Positions 1 through 34,934 of a stretch of DNA of 64,000 nucleotides are shown here, piece by piece. The translations under genes were made by a program, and so were the position numbers. The stretch is from assembly GCA_964349875.1 (NCBI GenBank), contig CAYGIG010000001.1, positions 52-64,051 of the forward strand, given 5' to 3'. Position 1 is the stretch's first letter, and each line of letters starts with the position of its first letter. The notes under the pieces were generated by a model. That model ran no database searches and had not been told where the DNA came from. It was given only the letters and a program-made list of their open reading frames with translations. Origin of the DNA: an uncultured Gammaproteobacteria bacterium (GTDB lineage: Bacteria > Patescibacteriota > Microgenomatia > CAYQLK01).

Positions 1-710
1 TATATTCCAAAAACCGCATAAGGTAACCCTAAAATTAATATTGCCAACGATATTCTTCTAAAATCCAGCTTCTTTTTTAAGCCGTAAATATACAGCCCCA
101 AAATTAAAGGATAAATAATCGCAAAGATATATATATATGTTAAAGAAACAGAAAAAGACAAAAATGAGAGCACTGAAACCAATACCAATTCTTTCAGCCT
201 CCATCCTTTTTTATGAAAGATTTTCAATAACACTAAACCATAAATAGGAATCAGAAGGTAGGAGATTAAAGTCTCAGACAAAAACATCTGCCCCCACCAA
301 TATGTCGAGCCCACAAGCATGATCGCGGCGTACAACAAATAAAATCGGCTCTTTACTTCACCAAAACTACTCCTAAAAAGCAGGTAAGTCATTAAAATTG
401 CCATCCAAATTTCCAAAGCAAAAAACAGTCTGAATAATACGAACGATTGCTGGGTAAAAAATGTGCTAATTGAAGCTATAAAATAAGCTCCAATATTATG
501 ATGAGTAAAAAATCCAACGTTAGGCAATATTCCTTTATTTATATAGTATCCCCCCAAAATATTATCGTACTCGTCAGGAAAAGTTTCGTGAACCGCACTT
601 ATTAGAGTCAGAAACAAAAATATTACGAACAAACAAACCAGCCATTTGTTTCTAGTTACAAAACGAACAGTTTTTTTTAACAATCCAATGCCGCCAAAAT
701 AATTAGGCAT
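1..710 (-). CDS. polytopic membrane protein, 5'-partial in window (start codon ATG at 710..708, continues past position 1); possibly GT-C type glycosyltransferase-like
   Basis: Hand translation of the minus strand from 710 gives MPNYFGGIGLLKKTVRFVTRNKWLVCLFVIFLFLTLISAVHETFPDEYDNILGGYYI... with no stops over several hundred nt. It is strongly hydrophobic. It is absent from the ORF track, probably because it runs off the window edge. Confidence 0.4.
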   Translation of the reverse strand, partial: MPNYFGGIGLLKKTVRFVTRNKWLVCLFVIFLFLTLISAVHETFPDEYDNILGGYYINKGILPNVGFFTHHNIGAYFIASISTFFTQQSFVLFRLFFALEIWMAILMTYLLFRSSFGEVKSRFYLLYAAIMLVGSTYWWGQMFLSETLISYLLIPIYGLVLLKIFHKKGWRLKELVLVSVLSFLSFSVSLTYIYIFAIIYPLILGLYIYGLKKKLDFRRISLAILILGLPYAVFGI

Positions 711-713
711 CTT

Positions 714-1388
714 TTATTTTTTTACTATTCTCTTCTTTGTTCCGTTAATTCCTTTTTTTATTATCTCTCTGCTGCCAGGATCCTTTAAAATATGCCAAGC
801 AGCTGGTGCAACTGAGACAAAGATAATTATTGCAATAATTAGCAGTAAATAATTATCTATACCGGGAATCTGACCTAGGAAAAAACCTAGTAGTGTCACA
901 CCGACTGCCCAAGCAAAACCTCCAACCAAGTTATATAGAAAAAACGTCTTATAATTCATGTCCCCTATTCCTGCTACAACCGGAGCAAAAGTCCGGACAA
1001 ATGGGATAAATCTGGCTAGGATTATGGTTTTCCCTCCATGCTTTTCATAAAACTCTTGTGCTTTAAGCAAGTGCCCCGGCTTAAAAAATTTAGACTCTTC
1101 CTTGGTAAATAATTTTTTTCCAAATCTCTTGCCGGTCGTATACCCAACATTATCTCCAATTACCGCTCCTAAAAACACAAAAATTAACAGAGAATATATA
1201 TCGATAAGTCCGGTTGAAGCTAAAATTCCCGCCGAAATCAACAGTGAATCACCTGGTAAAAAAAATCCGACCAATAGACCCGACTCAGCAAATACTATTA
1301 AAGAAACCAATCCCACCCCAACTATACTTCTCAGCGAGGGATCAACCGACTCAATAATGTGTTTTATATCAAATATTCCAATAGCCAT
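714..1388 (-). CDS. DedA/SNARE-associated family membrane protein
   Basis: Motifs VGFFLPGDSLLISAGILA, GKRFGKKLF, ILARFIPFVRTFAPVVAGIGDMNY are typical of DedA (TVP38/TMEM64) family proteins. Confidence 0.75.
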   Translation of the reverse strand: MAIGIFDIKHIIESVDPSLRSIVGVGLVSLIVFAESGLLVGFFLPGDSLLISAGILASTGLIDIYSLLIFVFLGAVIGDNVGYTTGKRFGKKLFTKEESKFFKPGHLLKAQEFYEKHGGKTIILARFIPFVRTFAPVVAGIGDMNYKTFFLYNLVGGFAWAVGVTLLGFFLGQIPGIDNYLLLIIAIIIFVSVAPAAWHILKDPGSREIIKKGINGTKKRIVKK

Positions 1389-1408
1389 AATACCCGAAGA
1401 ATTCTACA

Positions 1409-1717
1409 CTACCAAAACCAAAATTTACCACGACCAAAAAGCGGATAATACCGCAAAATCACCTTTCCTAAAACCATATTTTCTTCTATCCACCCAAATT
1501 CTCTCGAGTCAGTAGTAAAACTTTCATTCAAACCCATGACAAAAACCTTACCATTTTTTTTATTCACCACTCTTTTCAACAGCCTTCTATTTCCACCTCT
1601 TGGATCACAAAAAACCACATCGCTACCTACTTTAATTGACCCAAAACTAACTGAAATCAAAAAATCACCCTGAAAATAATCAGGCTCCATACTTCTCCCC
1701 TCAACCAAAAACCTCAT
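1409..1717 (-). CDS. sodX: S26/S24-type signal-peptidase-like protease, candidate NiSOD maturation peptidase (SodX-like)
   Basis: The GRSMEP motif carries a Ser nucleophile and LLKRVV a Lys general base, as in SPase I/LexA-type peptidases. It lies directly downstream of, and co-oriented with, the NiSOD gene, as in Streptomyces sodN-sodX. Confidence 0.6.
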   Translation of the reverse strand: MRFLVEGRSMEPDYFQGDFLISVSFGSIKVGSDVVFCDPRGGNRRLLKRVVNKKNGKVFVMGLNESFTTDSREFGWIEENMVLGKVILRYYPLFGRGKFWFW

Positions 1718-1740
1718 TTAATTTAAAATTTGATTCTCTC

Positions 1741-2154
1741 TTACACCGCAGCCTTAGCTTTTTCAAACATTTCAGCTATCTCATCCACTGCCTTAACTAA
1801 TCTTTGTGCTGCATCCAAATGGGCATGTTGCTTGTTTTCTGAAATTAACTTAGCCGTATTCCAAACTTTATTATGCAAATCCGGAAACTTCTCTAAATGT
1901 TCCGGTTTGAAAAAATCAGTCCACAAGGTCAATATTTCTTGTTTGCAGATTCTGGCATGTTCTTCCTTCGTAGTAACCATTCTCACAAAACTATTCATAT
2001 CAGACGGTGCCATTTCTTTTGGCAAGGCTAAGATTTTCTCAACCATCTTTAATACCGTTGCAGCTGCTATTTGAGCCGGTTTTGGATCATAAATACCGCA
2101 TGGCACATCGCAATGTGCGAACACTTTGTTGGAGGGTTTAAATATATTAATCAT
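1741..2154 (-). CDS. sodN: nickel-containing superoxide dismutase precursor (NiSOD)
   Basis: The mature N-terminus HCDVPCGIYDP follows a 13-aa leader MINIFKPSNKVFA. This is the canonical Ni-hook motif (His1, Cys2, Cys6). Length of 137 aa and the helical remainder fit NiSOD. Confidence 0.8.
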   Translation of the reverse strand: MINIFKPSNKVFAHCDVPCGIYDPKPAQIAAATVLKMVEKILALPKEMAPSDMNSFVRMVTTKEEHARICKQEILTLWTDFFKPEHLEKFPDLHNKVWNTAKLISENKQHAHLDAAQRLVKAVDEIAEMFEKAKAAV

Positions 2155-2216: not shown

Positions 2217-3875
2217 GTGCACAAACACATAAAAAAAATATTTTCCTTATTAAAAGGCCACAAAACCCTAACAGCAATTCTCATCCTTGCTGCGCTGCTG
2301 AGATTCTATAATCTTGCAAATAATCCAGTTTCTCCATACTGGGACGAAGTTTCGATCGGTTATAACGCCTATTCAATTTCTCAGACCGGAAAGGACGAAT
2401 GGGGTGAACCTTTACCGCTTCTCTTTAAAGCATTTGGAGAATACAAACTACCAGGTCAAATTTATTTAACCGTTCCTTTTGTAAAAATCCTTGGACTCAA
2501 CGATTTTTCGATTAGATTGCCATCCGCCGTTATGGGAATACTGGCAGTATTTGCAATTTATTTACTGACATCACAGCTGGCCCAAAAAATTACTTCGTCA
2601 CGATACTCACACAAAATTGCTTTATTTTCTGCACTTCTTCTGGCCATTTCCCCTTGGCATTTGCAATTTTCAAGAGCCGCTTTTGAAGCCAATTCCGCTA
2701 TTAGTTTATATGCCTTTGGTTTGTATTTCTTATATTCCGGTCTCAAAAAACCCCGCAATTACATATATGCGGCTATTATTTTTGGCCTCTCATTCTACTT
2801 TTATTATCACGTTAGAATAATTATTCCCTTAATCGCTATTTATTTTTCGATCGCTTATTTCAAATTACTTTTCAAAAATCTACGCACCATTTCAGTTGCA
2901 GTTATCTTCTTTTTGATAATTACTCTACCTATTATTTACTCTGCTTTTACACCCCAAGCACTCAAACGTTCCGAAGAAGTTTCAATTATTGATATTACCA
3001 CTCCACAAACAAATCCGGATTTTGTCAAAGCCTACGCTAAATACCAAAATCTGTCAGTAATACCGAACAACTTTAAAGACAAACTTGCTTGGACAGACGT
3101 TCTTTTCGAGTATTACCTTCGCCACTTAGATTTTAACTTTTTGTTCACCACAGGCGACCCTCACCAGCCTCGCCACAGCACTACCAATCACGGCCTCCTG
3201 TATTATTTCCAAATTCCGCTCCTCCTTACCGGCCTTTTCCTGCTTATCCGCAAACATTCAAAGGAGTCAATCTTTGTTATTTTTCTTGGCGCAATATTTC
3301 CATTGTCGGCAATTTTTTCCGACCTCACTCCTCACGCACTCAGATCTTCCTTGGGTTCATTTAATTTATCTCTCTTGAGCGCATTTGGAATGTTACCGTT
3401 TTTAAAGCAAAGAATTATCAAGAGCATTTCAATAATAATTATTACTTTATCTGTTGGTTTTTATTTGTTTCAATACCACGCAGTCGCACCAAAAACGACT
3501 TCACAAGCTTGGGGATATGGCCACAAGGAGTTGTTTACATATCTCCAACCTCATACAGAACCAATAATTATCTCAGGCGCTTATTGGAATCCTTATATAT
3601 ATTTCCTCTACTACAACCACATTAATCCTTCAGATTATCAAAAACTCGATATTAAAAAAACTCACTTCACAAACTACTTTTTTGCAGGCGCCGACTGGGA
3701 CGGACGTGGTGCATTAAGTAATAACTTAATCAAAAGCCAACTTCAAGCCGGAAAAAACATTTTAGTTCTAACCCCCACGGACGATTTACGAATTACTATT
3801 TTCCGTACTTTATTGCATACAATTTACGACAAAAATAATTCGCCGATATTTTTAATTTACGAAACATACTACTAA
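2217..3875 (+). CDS. GT-C fold membrane glycosyltransferase (GT39/ArnT/PMT-like)
   Basis: 552 aa with about 10 TM helices. The N-terminal loop motif YWDEVSIGYNAYSISQTGKDEWGEP is characteristic of the ArnT/PMT-like glycosyltransferases abundant in small-genome bacteria. Confidence 0.65.
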   Translation: MHKHIKKIFSLLKGHKTLTAILILAALLRFYNLANNPVSPYWDEVSIGYNAYSISQTGKDEWGEPLPLLFKAFGEYKLPGQIYLTVPFVKILGLNDFSIRLPSAVMGILAVFAIYLLTSQLAQKITSSRYSHKIALFSALLLAISPWHLQFSRAAFEANSAISLYAFGLYFLYSGLKKPRNYIYAAIIFGLSFYFYYHVRIIIPLIAIYFSIAYFKLLFKNLRTISVAVIFFLIITLPIIYSAFTPQALKRSEEVSIIDITTPQTNPDFVKAYAKYQNLSVIPNNFKDKLAWTDVLFEYYLRHLDFNFLFTTGDPHQPRHSTTNHGLLYYFQIPLLLTGLFLLIRKHSKESIFVIFLGAIFPLSAIFSDLTPHALRSSLGSFNLSLLSAFGMLPFLKQRIIKSISIIIITLSVGFYLFQYHAVAPKTTSQAWGYGHKELFTYLQPHTEPIIISGAYWNPYIYFLYYNHINPSDYQKLDIKKTHFTNYFFAGADWDGRGALSNNLIKSQLQAGKNILVLTPTDDLRITIFRTLLHTIYDKNNSPIFLIYETYY

Positions 3876-4472: not shown

Positions 4473-5939
4473 ATGATTAAAGTCGAAAATCTTTCACTTG
4501 GACATCAGTTTGGAAACCTGTACGAAAATGCTAATTTTTTAGTTGGTACAAACATCAAAGCCGGCCTCGTCGGGCCCAATGGTAGCGGCAAATCCACTCT
4601 TCTCAAGGCCATTATTGGCCAAATCGAACCTTCAGAGGGCAAACTTACCGTAATCGGTACGGTTGGATACGTTCCTCAAGAGATCAAATCAGATGCCGAA
4701 TTAGAAAAAAGCAAAACAATCAGAAGCTACATCGATCCACACAACAACCACCCTGATCATGAACTATCAAAAATCCTTTTCGGCCTAGAACTGGAAAACT
4801 TAGAATTAGAAATGGCGCCGCAAAAGCTTTCTGGCGGCCAGAAAACCAAACTCTGTCTGGCAAAAGCTCTACTGGCTAAACCAGACGTACTCTTACTCGA
4901 CGAACCCACAAACTTTTTGGATGCCAAGGGCAAAACTTGGGTTATGAATTTTTTAGCACATTACCCAAAAACCCTCCTCATGATCTCTCACGACTTAGAA
5001 CTTTTAGACAAACACATCGACAAGATTATCTCGATTAATCCTCAATTCAGAACAGTTGATGAGTACAAAGGCAACTACTCGAAGTATTTAGTCGCCAAAC
5101 AACAAAACGATGATCTACTTAAAAGAAGCGTAGAACAGGAACAAAAACATATCAAAAAACTCAAAAAAAGCCTTACTCTCTACTCTCAGTTCTCACGCAA
5201 AAAAAGTGTCCTATCCAAACGTATCGACCGCCTAGAAGAAGAATTGCCTGAACTGCCAAAAGATGTTCAAAAACTCAAAATCAACCTTCCCACTCCTTCC
5301 AATGTTGGCGAAATTCCAATCAGCATCAAAGGAATCAATAAAACATATGGAGAAACCAAAATTCTCTCTGACTTTTCTCTTTCTATAATTCGCGGCGAAA
5401 GAATAGCCTTAATCGGCCCAAACGGTGCTGGTAAAAGCACAATTATTAAGATACTGACAGAAACATCTAAGCCAGATTCTGGTGAAATTACCAAAGACGA
5501 CAACCTAAAAATCGGCTACTACTCCCAAGAGTTTGAAACGTTCGATTTTGAAAAAACTCTTAGCGAAACCGCGACTGAAGTAAGCGGCATGTCTGAATTT
5601 TCAATTCGTCCTTTTTTGGCTAAATTTATGTTCACAGGCAATAAAATTTATCAAAGAATTTCTACTCTTTCTGGTGGAGAAAAAACCAGATTTTCAATTG
5701 CCCTAATAATGCTTAGCAACAACAATCTACTCATCCTCGACGAACCCACCACATATCTTGATGTCGTCTCACAAAAAGTAATCCTTGAAGCAATCAAGAG
5801 TTATATTGGGGCAATGTTAATTGTCAGCCACACCGAAGAATTTATTACCCAACTCGAACCAAACAGAGCAGTTATTATGCCTGAAGGAATAGTTCGCCAT
5901 TGGTCACCCGAACTGGTGGAAAAAATTTCCGACATCTAG
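4473..5939 (+). CDS. ABC-F family ATPase (two tandem ABC domains, no TM domain)
   Basis: Two Walker A sites (GPNGSGKST, GPNGAGKST), two ABC signatures (LSGGQKTKL, LSGGEKTRF) and a linker with a charged coiled-coil. Confidence 0.85.
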   Translation: MIKVENLSLGHQFGNLYENANFLVGTNIKAGLVGPNGSGKSTLLKAIIGQIEPSEGKLTVIGTVGYVPQEIKSDAELEKSKTIRSYIDPHNNHPDHELSKILFGLELENLELEMAPQKLSGGQKTKLCLAKALLAKPDVLLLDEPTNFLDAKGKTWVMNFLAHYPKTLLMISHDLELLDKHIDKIISINPQFRTVDEYKGNYSKYLVAKQQNDDLLKRSVEQEQKHIKKLKKSLTLYSQFSRKKSVLSKRIDRLEEELPELPKDVQKLKINLPTPSNVGEIPISIKGINKTYGETKILSDFSLSIIRGERIALIGPNGAGKSTIIKILTETSKPDSGEITKDDNLKIGYYSQEFETFDFEKTLSETATEVSGMSEFSIRPFLAKFMFTGNKIYQRISTLSGGEKTRFSIALIMLSNNNLLILDEPTTYLDVVSQKVILEAIKSYIGAMLIVSHTEEFITQLEPNRAVIMPEGIVRHWSPELVEKISDI

Positions 5940-18079: not shown

Positions 18080-18164
18080 AAATATTCCTTTCTTTGATTA
18101 TTCTGTCTTATATTTTATATTGTACCCACTACAAGAGAAACTGTTAGTGTCTCTTTAGAGTGTC

Positions 18165-18257
<93 letters not shown>

Positions 18258-18280
18258 TAATAATTCACCCTACTTAACAG

Positions 18281-18398
18281 GTCGAACAAGGTTCTCAAAC
18301 TTTAGTTTGAGGTTCTTATGCGACCTCTCCAAAATTTTTAGTCGAAAAGGCTGAACAAGAATCCAAAATAAAATTTTTGATTCTTCTGCGACCTCTCC
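18281..18398 (-). repeat. two tandem copies of a ~50-nt tRNA-Ser-5'-derived hairpin repeat (18281..18330 and 18341..18398)
   Basis: Each unit, read on the minus strand, starts GGAGAGGTCGCA(T/G)AAGAA(C/T)C, identical to the first 14 nt of tRNA-Ser. A short variable perfect palindrome follows (CTCAAACT/AGTTTGAG, or CAAAAT/ATTTTTG), then (G/A)GAA(C/T)CTTGTTCGAC. A third copy is at 26197..26248. Confidence 0.7.
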
Positions 18399-18503
18399 TT
18401 GTTGCCTATTCAGGCCGATATATTCTACCTGAGATTAACTTAAGTGTAAAAAACGAAAAAATAGTCTCGCAGAAAAAAACCTCAAGTACTACAATATTCC
18501 TAC

Positions 18504-25956: not shown

Positions 25957-26084
25957 CTAACCTAACAAGTAGAAAACGGGGACCCCACAAAATCTTTGAT
26001 TTTGAAGGGGAGAAGGAGGAATGGCGGAAACCAATTTAACTTTACGTCAGAAAAGTCTCTTGGTTGTAGTCCATTCCAACGCGG

Positions 26085-26172
26085 CGGAGGGGGAGAGATT
26101 CGAACTCTCGGAAGGAAAAAATCCTTCAGCAGTTTTCGAAACTGCCGCACTAGTCCACTATGCGACCCCTCC
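26085..26172 (-). tRNA. tRNA-Ser (anticodon CGA), long variable arm, 3' CCG instead of CCA
   Basis: GGAGGGGTCGCATAGTGGACTAGTGCGGCAGTTTCGAAAACTGCTGAAGGATTTTTTCCTTCCGAGAGTTCGAATCTCTCCCCCTCCG. Anticodon loop TTCGAAA. Confidence 0.8.
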
Positions 26173-26196
26173 AAACTAAACTAGTTTACAGTATGG

Positions 26197-26248
26197 GTCG
26201 AACAAGGTTCTTCTAATGTATAACATTAGGTTCTTATGCGACCTCTCC
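26197..26248 (-). repeat. third copy of the tRNA-Ser-5'-derived hairpin repeat
   Basis: Minus strand GGAGAGGTCGCATAAGAACCT-AATGTTATACATT-AGAAGAACCTTGTTCGAC. Same flanks as the 18281 and 18341 copies, with a different internal palindrome (CTAATGT/ACATTAG). Confidence 0.7.
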
Positions 26249-26279
26249 TAAGCAGGCTTATTCTAACAAAAAAATTTTG

Positions 26280-26352
26280 TGCGCTCGGAGGGATTTGAAC
26301 CCCCGACTTTCAGATCCGGAATCTGACGCTCTATCCACTGAGCTACGAGCGC
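26280..26352 (-). tRNA. tRNA-Arg (anticodon CCG)
   Basis: GCGCTCGTAGCTCAGTGGATAGAGCGTCAGATTCCGGATCTGAAAGTCGGGGGTTCAAATCCCTCCGAGCGCA. Anticodon loop TTCCGGA. Confidence 0.85.
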
Positions 26353-27214: not shown

Positions 27215-27262
27215 TATTTTAATTGTACCTCATGCTCCCTGTTTCACAATTCATCTGAATTT

Positions 27263-27280
27263 TGGCGGAGAGGAGGATTG
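27263..27280 (-). repeat. partial duplicate of the 3' end of tRNA-Ser(GGA) immediately downstream of the gene
   Basis: tggcggagaggagg at 27263 against tggcggagagagggg at the tRNA 3' end. Both tRNA-Ser(GCT) and tRNA-Ser(GGA) also share the downstream context ttagagtgtc. Confidence 0.45.
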
Positions 27281-27297
27281 GGTCTCCTTAGAGTGTC

Positions 27298-28066: not shown

Positions 28067-28274
28067 AATTCCCCTCGTTCTTTATCTTATTTATTAAAAA
28101 AGAAATTGCAAAGCAATTTCTCACAAAACACTAAAGTGTTTTGAAAGGACGAATGACAAAATTCATTTGCTCCCGTTACAAAGGGAATGAGAGTAGGACG
28201 GTCCGGCTTTAGTCGGATTTAGCTTTGCTAAAAGTTCGTCGAGAGAAAACCGTAGGTGTTCTCAGGAAAATCAA

Positions 28275-28347
28275 GCGCTCGTAGCTCAGTGGATAGAGTA
28301 TCAGATTGCGGATCTGAGGGTCGCAGGTTCGAATCCTGCCGGGCGCA
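28275..28347 (+). tRNA. tRNA-Arg (anticodon read as GCG; unusual for bacteria, verify)
   Basis: GCGCTCGTAGCTCAGTGGATAGAGTATCAGATTGCGGATCTGAGGGTCGCAGGTTCGAATCCTGCCGGGCGCA. Anticodon loop TTGCGGA. Confidence 0.7.
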
Positions 28348-28361
28348 CAATTATTACTTAA

Positions 28362-34449: not shown

Positions 34450-34480
34450 TGTCTTTTCCTTTTTCAAGAAATTCCATTAG

Positions 34481-34934
34481 TGGAGATGGCGGGCTATGAA
34501 CCCGCGTCCGATAATAATCCGAAAAGAAACTTCTACAAGCGTAGTTAGTGTTTATAAAAATCATTCTGATCTCCAAACCCACTAACAGGCGCTGGAGGCA
34601 AAACTATCTAATTTAATTAAGAATACCCAAAATTAATTGAGTACTAATAATATCTTTTCCGCATTTCTCAAAATTAGCAAATGAGCGCTTAGACTCCAAC
34701 AAAGGTTATACCCTAAGCGGCTCCGTTGGAGAAAAACCACTTAAAGTCCTTATCGGCCTAACTTAGGCAAAAGCGTAAGCAGACGGACGAGGAGCAAACA
34801 ATCCCGCGAGGGAGTCGTTTACTTTGTCAGAAATTTTGCTGACATTTATTTTTTCTAAAAATATTTTGCGAGTTATTTAGAATCACTCGGCTTGCAGTTT
34901 TTAACGAGCTAAACCGTCGAGGCAATACATCCCC
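34481..34934 (-). ncRNA. ssrA: tmRNA (SsrA), ~454 nt, CCA not encoded
   Basis: 5' end GGGGATGTATTGCCTCGACGGTTTAG (conserved GGGG..TCGACGG). 3' tRNA-Ala-like end GGACGCGGGTTCATAGCCCGCCATCTCCA with a G3-U pair in the acceptor stem. In-frame tag candidate ...GCT CCT CGT CCG TCT GCT TAC GCT TTT GCC TAA (APRPSAYAFA, stop near 34763). smpB is 3 kb away. Confidence 0.8.

What the first reader, a model, noticed from the sequence alone, without database searches (positions are those of the whole stretch)
18281..18398. Novel small repeat family: tRNA-Ser 5' leader plus variable palindrome plus conserved tail (3 copies in window)
Each copy, read on the minus strand, is GGAGAGGTCGCA(T/G)AAGAAYC, then an 8-17-nt perfect palindrome that differs in every copy, then RGAAYCTTGTTCGAC. 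The outer arms can also pair (GGTCGCATAAG with CTTGTTCGACC), giving a long bipartite hairpin.

The architecture resembles a MITE, or a tRNA-primed retro-/integration scar, more than a promoter. The variable inner palindrome with conserved flanks is unusual. The third copy is at 26197-26248.
Basis: seen in the sequence. Interest (0 to 1): 0.5.

Follow-up and report, generated by a model that had tools for sequence, protein, structure and literature searches.

The report
Mini-tRNA hairpin cassette upstream of tRNA-Ser
A 45-130-base hairpin that starts with an exact copy of the first 14 bases of serine tRNA sits just in front of some serine tRNA genes in ultra-small 'candidate phyla radiation' bacteria; it is a real, conserved RNA-structure family that I could not find described, and its job is unknown.

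Summary
Three minus-strand copies (18341-18398, 18279-18330, 26195-26248) begin with GGAGAGGTCGCA(T/G)AAGAA, the first 12-14 nt of tRNA-Ser. Each folds into a long hairpin and lies between a promoter-like site and a tRNA-Ser gene.

It is not a local accident. About 30 distinct relatives turned up in Daviesbacteria, Levybacteria, Berkelbacteria, Saccharibacteria and unnamed low-GC MAGs and metagenome contigs. Every relative that has the hairpin is upstream of a tRNA-Ser gene, on the tRNA strand.

The inner helix covaries at all 6 pairs. The AAG/CUU pairs and a 3x3 AAC/AAC internal loop are conserved. The tail matches the tRNA's own D-stem 3' strand plus its acceptor 3' strand. The cassette therefore reads as a miniaturised tRNA-Ser copy: acceptor stem plus D-stem, a hairpin in place of the D-loop, and the rest deleted.

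It behaves as a discrete present-or-absent unit bounded by a 12-14-nt direct repeat. It can be tandem (2-3 copies) and is missing from close relatives. Rfam has no match, it is not in IMG/VR, and I found no paper on it.

Best reading: a tRNA-Ser-derived structured leader RNA, co-transcribed with the tRNA and cut off by RNase P. Its function is inferred only. A selfish site-specific mini-element remains a live rival.

The parts
18422..18450 (-). Sigma-70-like promoter (TTTACA-17-TAGAAT) upstream of copy 1, copy 2 and tRNA-Ser(GCU)
   Evidence: Consensus scan, 10 of 12 matches. The orthologous promoter in L144 and L008 is followed after 10-11 nt by the tRNA or by the cassette head. The start site is inferred, not mapped.
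18341..18398 (-). Cassette copy 1, a diverged 'G' variant: GGAGAGGUCGCAGAAGAAUC...GGAUUCUUGUUCAGCC. The repeat unit runs 18331-18398.
   Evidence: Covariance-model hit of 51.6 bits. Fold -19.0 kcal/mol, z -4.0. The ortholog in L008 (417-483) is the only copy there.
18279..18330 (-). Cassette copy 2, canonical. Head is nt 1-14 of tRNA-Ser; AAG/CUU pairs; AAC/AAC internal loop; inner stem CUCAAAC/GUUUGAG; tail GUUCGACC.
   Evidence: Covariance-model hit of 64.1 bits at 18272-18330. Fold -20.5 kcal/mol, z -5.3. This copy is absent from the close relative L008.
18258..18278 (-). A/T-rich spacer between cassette copy 2 and tRNA-Ser
   Evidence: Read directly from the sequence. Unpaired in the whole-precursor fold.
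18165..18257 (-). tRNA-Ser(GCU), whose nt 1-14 are repeated as the cassette head
   Evidence: ARAGORN; Rfam tRNA 53.1 bits.
26260..26265 (-). -10-like TAGAAT (TGT-TAGAAT), 11 nt before the head of copy 3
   Evidence: Read directly from the sequence. The spacing and the '...gcctgctta|GG' context match those upstream of cassette heads in L053, L054 and L105. The consensus scanner did not call it; that scanner found TTGACA-17-GATTAT at 26421-26393, upstream of tRNA-Arg.
26195..26248 (-). Cassette copy 3: same head and tail as copy 2, with a different inner stem (CUAAUGU/ACAUUAG)
   Evidence: Covariance-model hit of 56.7 bits at 26188-26248. Fold -15.1 kcal/mol, z -3.2.
26173..26194 (-). Spacer between copy 3 and tRNA-Ser(CGA)
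   Evidence: Read directly from the sequence.
26083..26172 (-). tRNA-Ser(CGA) downstream of copy 3. It starts GGAGGGG, one base different from the head.
   Evidence: ARAGORN; Rfam tRNA 51.8 bits.
26279..26352 (-). tRNA-Arg(CCG) directly upstream of copy 3, possibly on the same transcript
   Evidence: ARAGORN and Rfam. Promoter-like site at 26421-26393.

Best explanation
**What it is.** The repeats are members of a family of tRNA-Ser-derived, structured 5'-leader cassettes found in Patescibacteria (CPR) bacteria; I found no description of it.

Each cassette is a miniaturised copy of tRNA-Ser:
- It keeps the acceptor 5' strand, U8-C9 and the D-stem 5' strand (nt 1-13/14).
- The D-loop is replaced by AAG-AAC-[variable stem-loop]-AAC-CUU.
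- It then resumes with the tRNA's D-stem 3' strand, G(U/A)GC, including the tRNA's own U13-G22 wobble.
- After 1-3 linker nt comes the acceptor 3' strand (CUCUCC). This strand is truncated in the window's copies.
- The anticodon, variable and T arms are gone in short forms. Long forms of 100-130 nt keep extra stems.

**Shown.**
- The cassette sits where a tRNA would start relative to a -10 box, or between two tRNAs, on the tRNA strand. Reading this as transcription with the tRNA rests on that position and is not tested.
- It folds as a self-contained rod hairpin and leaves the tRNA cloverleaf intact in the predicted precursor fold.
- The hairpin is under selection: compensatory changes, a conserved internal loop, and an excess of G-U over A-C.
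- It is gained, lost and multiplied as one unit bounded by the 12-14-nt repeat it shares with the tRNA.

**Inferred.**
- RNase P cutting at tRNA +1 removes the cassette from the precursor and releases it as a small RNA.
- Recombination or slippage between the head and the tRNA 5' end explains precise loss and tandem arrays. Gene conversion between cassettes explains identical copies at two loci.
- The conserved AAC/AAC loop, together with the retained acceptor and D-stem, makes it a tRNA-Ser look-alike that engages a tRNA-Ser-recognising or RNA-processing protein (SerRS, RNase P or RNase III). It would act as a dispensable decoy or processing handle.

I put about 0.85 on 'conserved tRNA-Ser-derived structured leader RNA family' and about 0.3 on the mimic/handle function.
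For: **Distribution.** Head-pattern scans of GTDB genomes and JGI metagenomes returned many chance hits in GC-rich coding DNA. Every hit that also has the hairpin lies in low-GC CPR DNA, 7-35 nt upstream of tRNA-Ser (GCU, CGA, UGA or GGA), on the same strand.

**Structure.** On 26 distinct sequences aligned to the model:
- 81.8% of cells pair, against 72.0% in shuffles.
- The covariation score is 0.279 against 0.120; 0 of 500 shuffles reach it.
- All slid registers score 0.10 or less.
- The inner helix has both-sided changes at 6 of 6 pairs.
- A-U/U-A exchange occurs at acceptor pair 3.
- AAG/CUU is essentially invariant and U13-G is kept in 23 of 26.

**Strand.** G-U outnumbers A-C 56 to 19 in paired columns.

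**Head tracks the local tRNA.** GGTGAGG (L083, L087), GGTGGGG (L104), GGAGGAG (L084) and GGAGGGG (L026, L041) each match the tRNA downstream.

**Position.** The head begins 8-11 nt after a -10 box in about 16 loci. That is the same spacing as promoter-to-tRNA at empty sites.

**Empty and filled orthologous sites.** L144 against L008 (GCU) and L144 against L026 (UGA) show a clean unit with a 12-14-nt direct repeat.

**Copy-number behaviour.** Tandem arrays occur in L083 (3 copies) and the window (2 copies). Identical cassettes sit at two loci in L053 and in L154.

**Fold and databases.** The precursor fold keeps the cassettes and the cloverleaf separate, z -4.6. No Rfam family matches.
Against: - There are no transcript or 5'-end data. 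Transcription, RNase P release and any protein partner are all inferred.
- The cassette is dispensable and patchy. Close relatives with all four tRNA-Ser genes have none. Only 1 of 8 protein-anchored Microgenomates lineages has it. That pattern fits a selfish or neutral element as well as an accessory function.
- In the window's copies 2 and 3 the acceptor-like outer helix is missing, so GGAGA is unpaired.
- Head conservation is partly forced by how members were found, because the scans needed an exact 18-mer.
- Sequences are related, so the shuffle statistics overstate independence. Without the conserved U-G column, the G-U/A-C excess is only 33 to 19, p about 0.07.
- Three heads differ from their tRNA at position 5.
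Confidence: 0.55

Rival explanations
1. A selfish, non-autonomous, site-specific mini-element homes to the 5' end or D-loop of tRNA-Ser genes. In this reading its core is the 14-nt identity with tRNA nt 1-14, which acts like an att site or a long target-site duplication. Its conserved AAG-AAC...AAC-CUUG hairpin is the recognition structure for a recombinase or reverse transcriptase encoded elsewhere. The hairpin covaries because the mobile single-stranded DNA or RNA form needs it.
For: - Clean presence/absence at orthologous sites, with a 12-14-nt direct repeat.
- Absent from close relatives and from most sampled lineages.
- Identical cassettes at two different tRNA-Ser genes in one genome. 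The identity starts exactly at head G1 and ends at tRNA +1 in L053 and L154.
- Tandem arrays.
- Three heads do not match their tRNA at position 5, as if the head travels with the unit.
- Other unrelated leader and trailer cassettes also move between tRNA genes in this clade.
- An orphan inner module lies next to a serine-recombinase/Bro-N region in L153.
Against: - No integrase, transposase or reverse transcriptase sits next to any cassette in the window.
- None was found in IMG/VR.
- Copy number is only 1-3 per genome.
- Known tRNA-targeting integrases duplicate the 3' part of the tRNA, not the 5' part (my knowledge; context in PMC9897764).
- The tail equals the tRNA's own D-stem and acceptor 3' strands, which points to descent from a tRNA copy rather than a foreign element.
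- Precise loss by direct-repeat slippage, plus gene conversion, explains the same data without any mobility machinery.
Confidence: 0.2
2. A neutral relic. A tandem tRNA-Ser duplicate decayed by internal deletion. The only selection is that the leftover 5' strand stays sequestered by the leftover 3' strands, so that it cannot disturb folding of the real tRNA. RNase P discards it and it has no function of its own.
For: - The tail equals the D-stem 3' strand plus the acceptor 3' strand of the tRNA. Long forms look like less-reduced tRNA-like remnants.
- Comparable partial 5' copies with D-loop insertions lie upstream of tRNA-Arg (L096, L026, L156) and tRNA-Asn (L160).
- The cassette is dispensable in relatives.
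- It stays separate from the cloverleaf in the predicted fold.
Against: - A relic should not keep an unpaired 3x3 AAC/AAC loop and the AAG/CUU pairs nearly invariant across Daviesbacteria, Levybacteria, Saccharibacteria and unnamed MAGs while the inner stem turns over by compensatory change.
- The inner module is duplicated inside one cassette in L084 and L154.
- Deleting the relic through its direct repeats is easy, so long persistence without benefit is unexpected.
Confidence: 0.15
3. A DNA-level element: a palindromic operator or promoter-proximal protein-binding site that controls tRNA-Ser transcription, with no role for the RNA.
For: - It lies immediately downstream of -10 boxes.
- The GAACC...GAACC direct repeats could be a protein-binding site.
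Against: - G-U pairs greatly outnumber A-C, and U13-G is conserved. These would be mismatches in a DNA cruciform formed on the other strand.
- Inner stem sequences differ completely between members while pairing is kept.
- Copies also occur between two tRNA genes (L026, L154).
Confidence: 0.05
4. An intrinsic terminator or attenuator hairpin in the tRNA leader, or a chance local duplication.
For: The hairpin is stable.
Against: - No U-run follows it, and no minus-strand terminator-like site was called there.
- The spacer to the tRNA is 7-12 nt in most members.
- Chance is excluded.
Confidence: 0.02

Closest known systems
Partial tRNA gene copies left at integration sites of genetic elements (att-type tRNA gene fragments; reviewed in PMC9897764)
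   Same: Both show a direct repeat identical to one end of a tRNA gene, bounding a segment that is present in some genomes and absent in close relatives.
   Different: - The repeat here is the 5' end (nt 1-14), not the 3' end.
- The 'element' is only 45-130 nt with no cargo or integrase.
- It has a conserved, covarying hairpin and recurs across several candidate phyla.
MITEs (miniature inverted-repeat transposable elements)
   Same: Both are small and non-coding, have inverted-repeat ends (here head and tail), are flanked by a direct repeat, and can be tandem or polymorphic.
   Different: - It is not dispersed: every full member is upstream of tRNA-Ser.
- Its 'terminal repeats' are the tRNA's own acceptor and D-stem strands.
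- No related transposase was seen.
tRNA-like structures and minihelices used as RNase P substrates or processing signals (plant mitochondrial t-elements, acceptor/T-arm minihelix substrates; from my knowledge)
   Same: Both are a shrunken tRNA look-alike embedded in a longer transcript, and both have an acceptor-like stem.
   Different: - This cassette keeps the acceptor and D-stem, not the acceptor and T-arm that RNase P, CCA-adding enzyme and EF-Tu read.
- It has no 3' RCCA (except in L021).
- It sits in front of a real tRNA that already supplies the RNase P site.
Functional tRNA spacers such as the E. coli 3'ETS-leuZ sRNA sponge (from my knowledge)
   Same: Both are a transcribed spacer of a tRNA precursor that would be released by tRNA processing and could act on its own.
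   Different: - This one is a 5' leader, not a 3' spacer.
- It is a structured tRNA mimic rather than a single-stranded sponge.
- No target is known.
RNase III processing hairpins with a central internal loop (phage T7 R1.1 type; from my knowledge)
   Same: Both have a lower stem of about 15 bp, a small internal loop, and an upper stem-loop within a precursor RNA.
   Different: - No cleavage data exist for this cassette.
- The lower stem has mismatches and a bulge.
- Sequence identity with the tRNA 5' end is not a feature of RNase III sites.
Group I introns in Patescibacteria tRNA genes (PMC13011429)
   Same: Both occur in the same phylum and are extra structured RNA associated with tRNA genes. 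The U-G wobble in a hairpin next to tRNA-derived sequence superficially recalls helix P1.
   Different: - Those introns sit in the anticodon loop (35/36), are much longer and self-splice.
- This cassette is 45-130 nt and lies outside an intact tRNA.
- It has no catalytic core and gave no Intron_gpI hit in Rfam.

Membership tests
MITE | Terminal inverted repeats | tested here: met
   The head GGUCGCAUAAG and the tail CUUGUUCGACC are imperfect inverted repeats. They equal the tRNA's own strands.
MITE | Many dispersed copies at unrelated genomic sites | tested here: not met
   A covariance model with filters off over 64 kb found only the 3 copies. Scans of about 600 kb of related loci found full copies only upstream of tRNA-Ser, plus one partial orphan inner module away from any tRNA-Ser gene (L153 9871-9903).
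MITE | Short target-site duplication and a related autonomous transposon | tested here: inconclusive
   A 12-14-nt direct repeat flanks the unit, which is long for a DNA transposon. No transposase was found among neighbouring genes. Whole genomes were not searched.
Integrase att-site scar / tRNA gene fragment | A direct repeat of a tRNA end bounding a segment absent from related genomes | tested here: met
   L144 (empty) against L008 and L026 (filled).
Integrase att-site scar / tRNA gene fragment | The repeat covers the 3' part of the tRNA, and an integrase or element cargo lies between the repeats | tested here: not met
   The repeat is nt 1-14. Only 45-130 nt of hairpin lie between the repeats, with no ORF. 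Neighbouring genes are housekeeping.
tRNA / tRNA pseudogene (Rfam RF00005) | A cloverleaf detectable by tRNA models | tested here: not met
   ARAGORN and Rfam call only the real tRNAs. There was no sub-threshold tRNA hit on a long form or on the window leader.
tRNA / tRNA pseudogene (Rfam RF00005) | Acceptor stem and D-stem formed by tRNA-identical strands | tested here: met
   Pairs 1-6 with CUCUCC are present in most members. G10-C, C11-G, A12-U/A and U13-G use the tRNA's own GUGC strand. In the window's copies 2 and 3 the acceptor part is truncated.
Intrinsic terminator | A G+C-rich hairpin followed by a U-run | tested here: not met
   No minus-strand terminator-like site lies at the copies. 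The sequence after the hairpin is not U-rich.
Group I intron | A catalytic core (P3-P9) and flanking exons that join into one gene | tested here: not met
   The length is 45-130 nt. There was no Rfam intron hit. A complete tRNA follows the cassette.
Any curated RNA family (Rfam 15) | A score at or above the gathering threshold | tested here: not met
   Only tRNA and tmRNA were found in the window and loci. The E-value mode gave only noise hairpin hits.
SerRS-recognised tRNA-Ser mimic (hypothesis) | Retains tRNA-Ser identity elements: acceptor pairs 1-72 to 3-70, C11-G24, and a long extra arm (as recalled for E. coli) | not testable with these tools
   G1-C/U, G2-C/U, A3-U and C11-G (18 of 26) are present, together with a protruding hairpin. 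Whether SerRS binds needs an experiment.

The most novel reading that the evidence does not exclude
The cassette is a functional tRNA-Ser mimic made from the tRNA's own acceptor and D-stems plus a conserved AAC/AAC loop. It would be produced in step with tRNA-Ser and released by RNase P. It would then bind a tRNA-Ser-specific partner, such as SerRS, a modification or processing enzyme, or a tRNA-Ser-targeting toxin, acting as a decoy or recruitment handle. Alternatively, it is a new kind of site-specific mini-element that homes to the 5' end of tRNA genes. Either would be a new class of tRNA-linked RNA element in the reduced genomes of the candidate phyla radiation.
Probability: 0.3. Interest if true: 0.8.

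Novelty: new variant of a known kind. Interest (0 to 1): 0.55.

Why it matters
If the family is real, and the covariation and distribution say it is, it adds an undescribed structured RNA to CPR/Patescibacteria. These organisms have minimal genomes, where any conserved non-coding RNA stands out.

It gives a concrete test case for how tRNA genes spawn tRNA look-alikes. Open questions it makes testable:
- Whether pre-tRNA leaders can carry functional mimics of the tRNA they precede.
- Whether small cassettes can home to tRNA 5' ends.

Together with the 3' trailer cassettes and a second leader cassette type seen here, it suggests that tRNA flanks in this clade are hotspots for small structured insertions. 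That also matters for tRNA annotation and for reading tRNA 'fragments' in MAGs.

Tried and rejected
- **Rfam.** I ran gathering and E-value modes on the window, on long-form loci and on the leader itself. Only tRNA, tmRNA and noise hairpin hits came back.
- **Viral contigs.** Two IMG/VR scans, one with the head pattern and one with the inner-module pattern, gave only chance hits in coding DNA.
- **Tail motif alone.** It is not above chance at 3 mismatches.
- **Terminator or attenuator.** No U-run follows the hairpin.
- **Group I intron remnant.** I considered this because of the U-G wobble next to tRNA-derived sequence. I rejected it: the U13-G pair is the tRNA's own D-stem wobble, the size is far too small, and an intact tRNA follows.
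- **Promoter inside the cassette or spacer.** Only inconsistent weak matches appeared.
- **Split or permuted tRNA, or a D-loop intron, reading.** It is not needed, because the downstream gene is complete.
- **Neighbouring genes.** There is no integrase, transposase or reverse transcriptase.
- **Literature.** Six full-text searches found nothing on this cassette. PMC9897764 and PMC13011429 give context only.
- **Trailer motif in the window.** GKTRTRTTRTC has no match in the window. The small GGAGA...UCUCC-GCCA hairpin after tRNA-Ser(GGA) does not fold better than shuffles.
Full report
**1. The observation**

On the minus strand the window reads as follows:
- promoter-like TTTACA-17-TAGAAT (18450-18422);
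- copy 1 (18398-18341);
- copy 2 (18330-18279);
- a 21-nt spacer;
- tRNA-Ser(GCU) (18257-18165).

At the second locus the order is tRNA-Arg(CCG) (26352-26279), TAGAAT plus 11 nt, copy 3 (26248-26195), a 22-nt spacer, then tRNA-Ser(CGA) (26172-26083).

The 18-mer head GGAGAGGTCGCAKAAGAA occurs three times. The expected count is 0.04, and no shuffle of 100 reached three. The tail is exact in copies 2 and 3 and degenerate in copy 1.

A covariance model scored at every position of the window finds only these three copies. The other two tRNA-Ser genes in the window (GGA, UGA) have no copy.

**2. It is a family, and it belongs to CPR/Patescibacteria**

I scanned one genome per GTDB species for the head. 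That gave 79 loci, most of them chance matches inside GC-rich coding DNA.

The hits that also have the hairpin are all in low-GC DNA:
- Daviesbacteria: L031, L053, L054, L062.
- Levybacteria: L063.
- Berkelbacteria: L061.
- Saccharibacteria: L060.
- MAGs labelled 'uncultured Gammaproteobacteria': L001, L008, L021, L026, L041. These are syntenic with the window and with Daviesbacteria loci, so the label is doubtful.

A metagenome scan added about 15 more distinct members. Homologs of a window protein that sits inside the tRNA cluster are named Daviesbacteria, Microgenomates or Patescibacteria by their sources. The window is therefore from a Microgenomates-like CPR bacterium.

Every member with a hairpin is followed within 7-35 nt by a tRNA-Ser gene on the same strand. 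All four isoacceptors are represented. Nothing was found in IMG/VR.

**3. Anatomy**

The consensus, 5' to 3', is:

GGAGAGG-UC-GCAU-AAG-AAC-[6-7-bp stem, 3-7-nt loop]-AAC-CUU-G(U/A)GC-(1-3 nt)-CUCUCC

A spacer follows (often UCAUUGCAUUC) and then the tRNA.

The key point is that the 3' half is not an arbitrary complement. G(U/A)GC is the tRNA's own D-stem 3' strand, G22-U23-G24-C25. The conserved U13-G wobble is the tRNA's own U13-G22 pair. CUCUCC is the tRNA's acceptor 3' strand. This follows from comparing the cassettes with the tRNA sequences.

The cassette is thus a tRNA-Ser copy in which a hairpin module replaces the D-loop and nt 26-65 are deleted.

Variants:
- Minimal forms lack the inner stem (L089, L084 4441-4480).
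- Some carry two inner modules (L084, L154).
- Long forms of 100-130 nt keep further stems (L053, L081, L021, L054).
- L021 even ends in ...CUCCGCCA directly before the tRNA.
- In the window's copies 2 and 3, and in L060, the acceptor-like part is truncated, so GGAGA is left unpaired.

**4. Evidence that the structure is selected**

The test used 26 distinct sequences aligned to the model (similar on the MAFFT alignment).

| Measure | Observed | Shuffled control |
|---|---|---|
| Cells forming a standard pair | 81.8% | 72.0% |
| Covariation score | 0.279 | 0.120 (0 of 500 shuffles reach the observed value) |
| Covariation score in slid registers | - | 0.10 or less |

- All six inner-helix pairs show changes on both sides.
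- Acceptor pair 3 switches between A-U and U-A.
- AAG/CUU is almost invariant, and the unpaired 3x3 AAC/AAC loop is conserved.
- Close relatives differ by double compensatory changes: CUCAAAC/GUUUGAG in the window against CUCAAGU/ACUUGAG in L026 and L041.
- G-U pairs outnumber A-C 56 to 19. Without the conserved U-G column the count is 33 to 19, p about 0.07. This points to the tRNA-sense strand as the folding strand.

Caveats:
- The sequences are related, so they are not independent.
- The head was fixed by the search pattern.
- The alignment was fitted to the model.

**5. Position relative to promoters, and unit behaviour**

In about 16 loci the head G1 lies 8-11 nt after a TAnAAT box. In genes without a cassette the tRNA itself starts at that distance. 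Examples are the window's tRNA-Ser(GGA), which starts 9 nt after TAAAAT, and L144 GCU.

Orthologous sites show the unit cleanly:
- L144 reads ...caggTAGAATatacaagctt|GGAGAGGTCGCATAGTGG.
- L008 reads ...caggTAGAATatacaagctct|GGAGAGGTCGCA[67 nt ending in GGAGAGGTCGCA]TAGTGG.
- L144 has tRNA-Arg, 17 nt, then tRNA-Ser(UGA). L026 has the cassette inserted after the same 17 nt.

Further behaviour of the unit:
- L008 has only copy 1, where the window has copies 1 and 2.
- L083 has three exact 57-nt tandem units.
- L053 and L154 each have two near-identical cassettes in front of different isoacceptors. The identity begins at head G1 and ends at the tRNA start.
- The head follows the local tRNA's acceptor sequence: GGTGAGG, GGTGGGG, GGAGGAG and GGAGGGG. 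Three exceptions differ at position 5: window copy 3, L053 UGA and L081.

**6. Prevalence without the head bias**

I fetched loci through the anchor protein rather than through the head pattern.
- Close relatives (73-85% amino-acid identity; L138/L139, L144-L147) have all four tRNA-Ser genes and no cassette.
- Among eight more distant Microgenomates lineages (L151-L160, about 35 tRNA-Ser genes), only L154 has cassettes: two copies, one with head GGAGAGCUCGC.
- L153 has an orphan inner module.

The cassette is therefore widespread but patchy, and clearly dispensable.

**7. How it most likely works**

Shown:
- It lies on the tRNA strand, at the position of the tRNA start relative to promoter-like sites.
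- It folds on its own and leaves the cloverleaf intact in the predicted precursor.
- The fold is conserved by compensatory change.
- It comes and goes as a unit bounded by the repeat it shares with the tRNA.

From established knowledge: RNase P cuts every pre-tRNA at +1, so the cassette would be removed and released.

Inferred:
- Slippage or unequal exchange between the 12-14-nt repeats gives precise loss and tandem gain.
- Gene conversion between cassettes gives identical copies at two loci.

Function is the weakest step. The conserved unpaired AAC/AAC loop argues for a sequence-specific partner. So does retention of exactly the acceptor and D-stem pairs, including C11-G24, which I recall as a SerRS identity element in E. 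coli. I therefore favour a tRNA-Ser mimic that acts as a decoy or handle for SerRS, RNase P or RNase III. The probability is modest, about 0.3.

**8. Rivals**

- **A selfish site-specific mini-element** fits the patchiness, the clean boundaries and the heads that do not match their tRNA. It also fits the presence of other mobile-looking leader and trailer cassettes in the clade. It lacks any enzyme, any dispersed copies and any phage or plasmid carrier, and its sequence is tRNA-derived.
- **A neutral relic of a tandem tRNA duplicate** explains the origin. It does not explain the conserved loop across candidate phyla.
- **DNA operator, terminator and chance** are contradicted.

**9. Comparison with what is known**

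No Rfam 15 family matches, and six full-text searches found no description. The nearest known things are:
- att-type tRNA gene fragments (PMC9897764). They share the repeat-bounded, polymorphic behaviour, but the wrong end of the tRNA is repeated, there is no cargo, and they have no conserved structure.
- MITEs, which differ in being dispersed.
- tRNA-like processing signals, which keep different arms of the tRNA.
- Functional tRNA spacers.
- Group I introns in Patescibacteria tRNA genes (PMC13011429), which are a different phenomenon.

I file it as a new variant of the known kind 'partial tRNA copies and tRNA-like structures flanking tRNA genes'. It is not a member of any named family.

**10. 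Verdict**

It is partly wrong: it is not a MITE and not a local accident.
- Interest is 0.55. This is a solid new structured-RNA family in CPR with an intriguing tRNA-mimic design, but its function is untested.

Noticed in passing
window 28180-28263 (+), just upstream of tRNA-Arg(GCG) at 28275-28348: This is a second, unrelated multi-hairpin leader cassette. It is 89% identical to the leader of tRNA-Ser(CGA) in the relative L139 (about 4539-4621). The L139 copy folds with z -3.8 and the window copy with z -1.7. Leader cassettes of more than one type seem to move between tRNA genes in this clade.
   Followed up: partly
L008 about 160-325 (-); L031 about 2300-2442 (-); L053 about 1125-1239 (-); L054 about 1635-1760 (-); L062 5190-5250 and 5870-5916 (-); L083 about 1385-1471 (-): These are 3' trailer cassettes of 25-150 nt made of hairpins. 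They end in a conserved GGUGURUUAUC motif followed by a second copy of the tRNA's last 16-18 nt, starting in the T-loop near position 59. The distal copy often carries CCA while the gene-proximal copy lacks it. They occur after tRNA-Ser and tRNA-Arg genes. They are polymorphic: L008 and L139 are filled, while the window and L144 are empty. They mirror the 5' cassette, with the junction in the T-loop instead of the D-loop.
   Followed up: partly
window 27250-27297 (-), after tRNA-Ser(GGA); also 18125-18164 (-): The trailer of tRNA-Ser(GGA) contains a second ...CCUCUCCGCCA preceded by GGAGA. The trailers of tRNA-Ser GCU and GGA share GCCA-GACACUCUAARGAGAC. The small hairpin does not fold better than shuffles, z -0.6.
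   Followed up: partly
L096 1903-1960; L026 3948-4032; L156 10626-10693; L160 17280-17393: Analogous leader pieces lie in front of tRNA-Arg(GCG) and tRNA-Asn. Each is an exact copy of the tRNA's first 16-21 nt, broken in the D-loop (again after ...AUA|AG in the Arg cases) by a small AAG...CUUG-type or other hairpin. A partial complement or further tRNA fragments follow. The 5'-copy-with-D-loop-insertion design is therefore not strictly specific to tRNA-Ser.
   Followed up: partly
L153 9871-9903 (-): An orphan inner module (AUAAGAAC-AUCCGCC...GGCGGAU-AACCUUGA) has no tRNA-Ser head and no adjacent tRNA-Ser gene. In this locus the usual tRNA-Ser(GCU/UGA) pair is missing, and a large serine recombinase and a Bro-N gene lie a few kb away.
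   Followed up: partly
L139 2180-2302 and 6737-6805: Other long leaders of 123 nt and 69 nt lie between conserved promoters and tRNA-Ser GCU and UGA. They have no similarity to the cassette studied here.
   Followed up: no
window 34478-34934 (-): The tmRNA gene spans 457 nt against a 374-position model, so it probably carries an insertion. The cluster of tRNA-Ser, tRNA-Arg, tmRNA, SmpB and tRNA-Asn is syntenic across the CPR loci.
   Followed up: no
L001, L008, L021, L026, L041 (record titles): MAGs titled 'uncultured Gammaproteobacteria' are low-GC and share gene order and up to 83% amino-acid identity with this window. They also share synteny with Daviesbacteria loci. The taxonomic labels are probably wrong.
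   Followed up: partly
Spacers before tRNA-Ser in L031, L096, L154, L081, L063 and L084: The 10-12-nt spacer between cassette and tRNA is itself conserved (UCAUUGCAUUC and close variants). It usually puts C at position -1, which could pair with the G73 discriminator.
   Followed up: no
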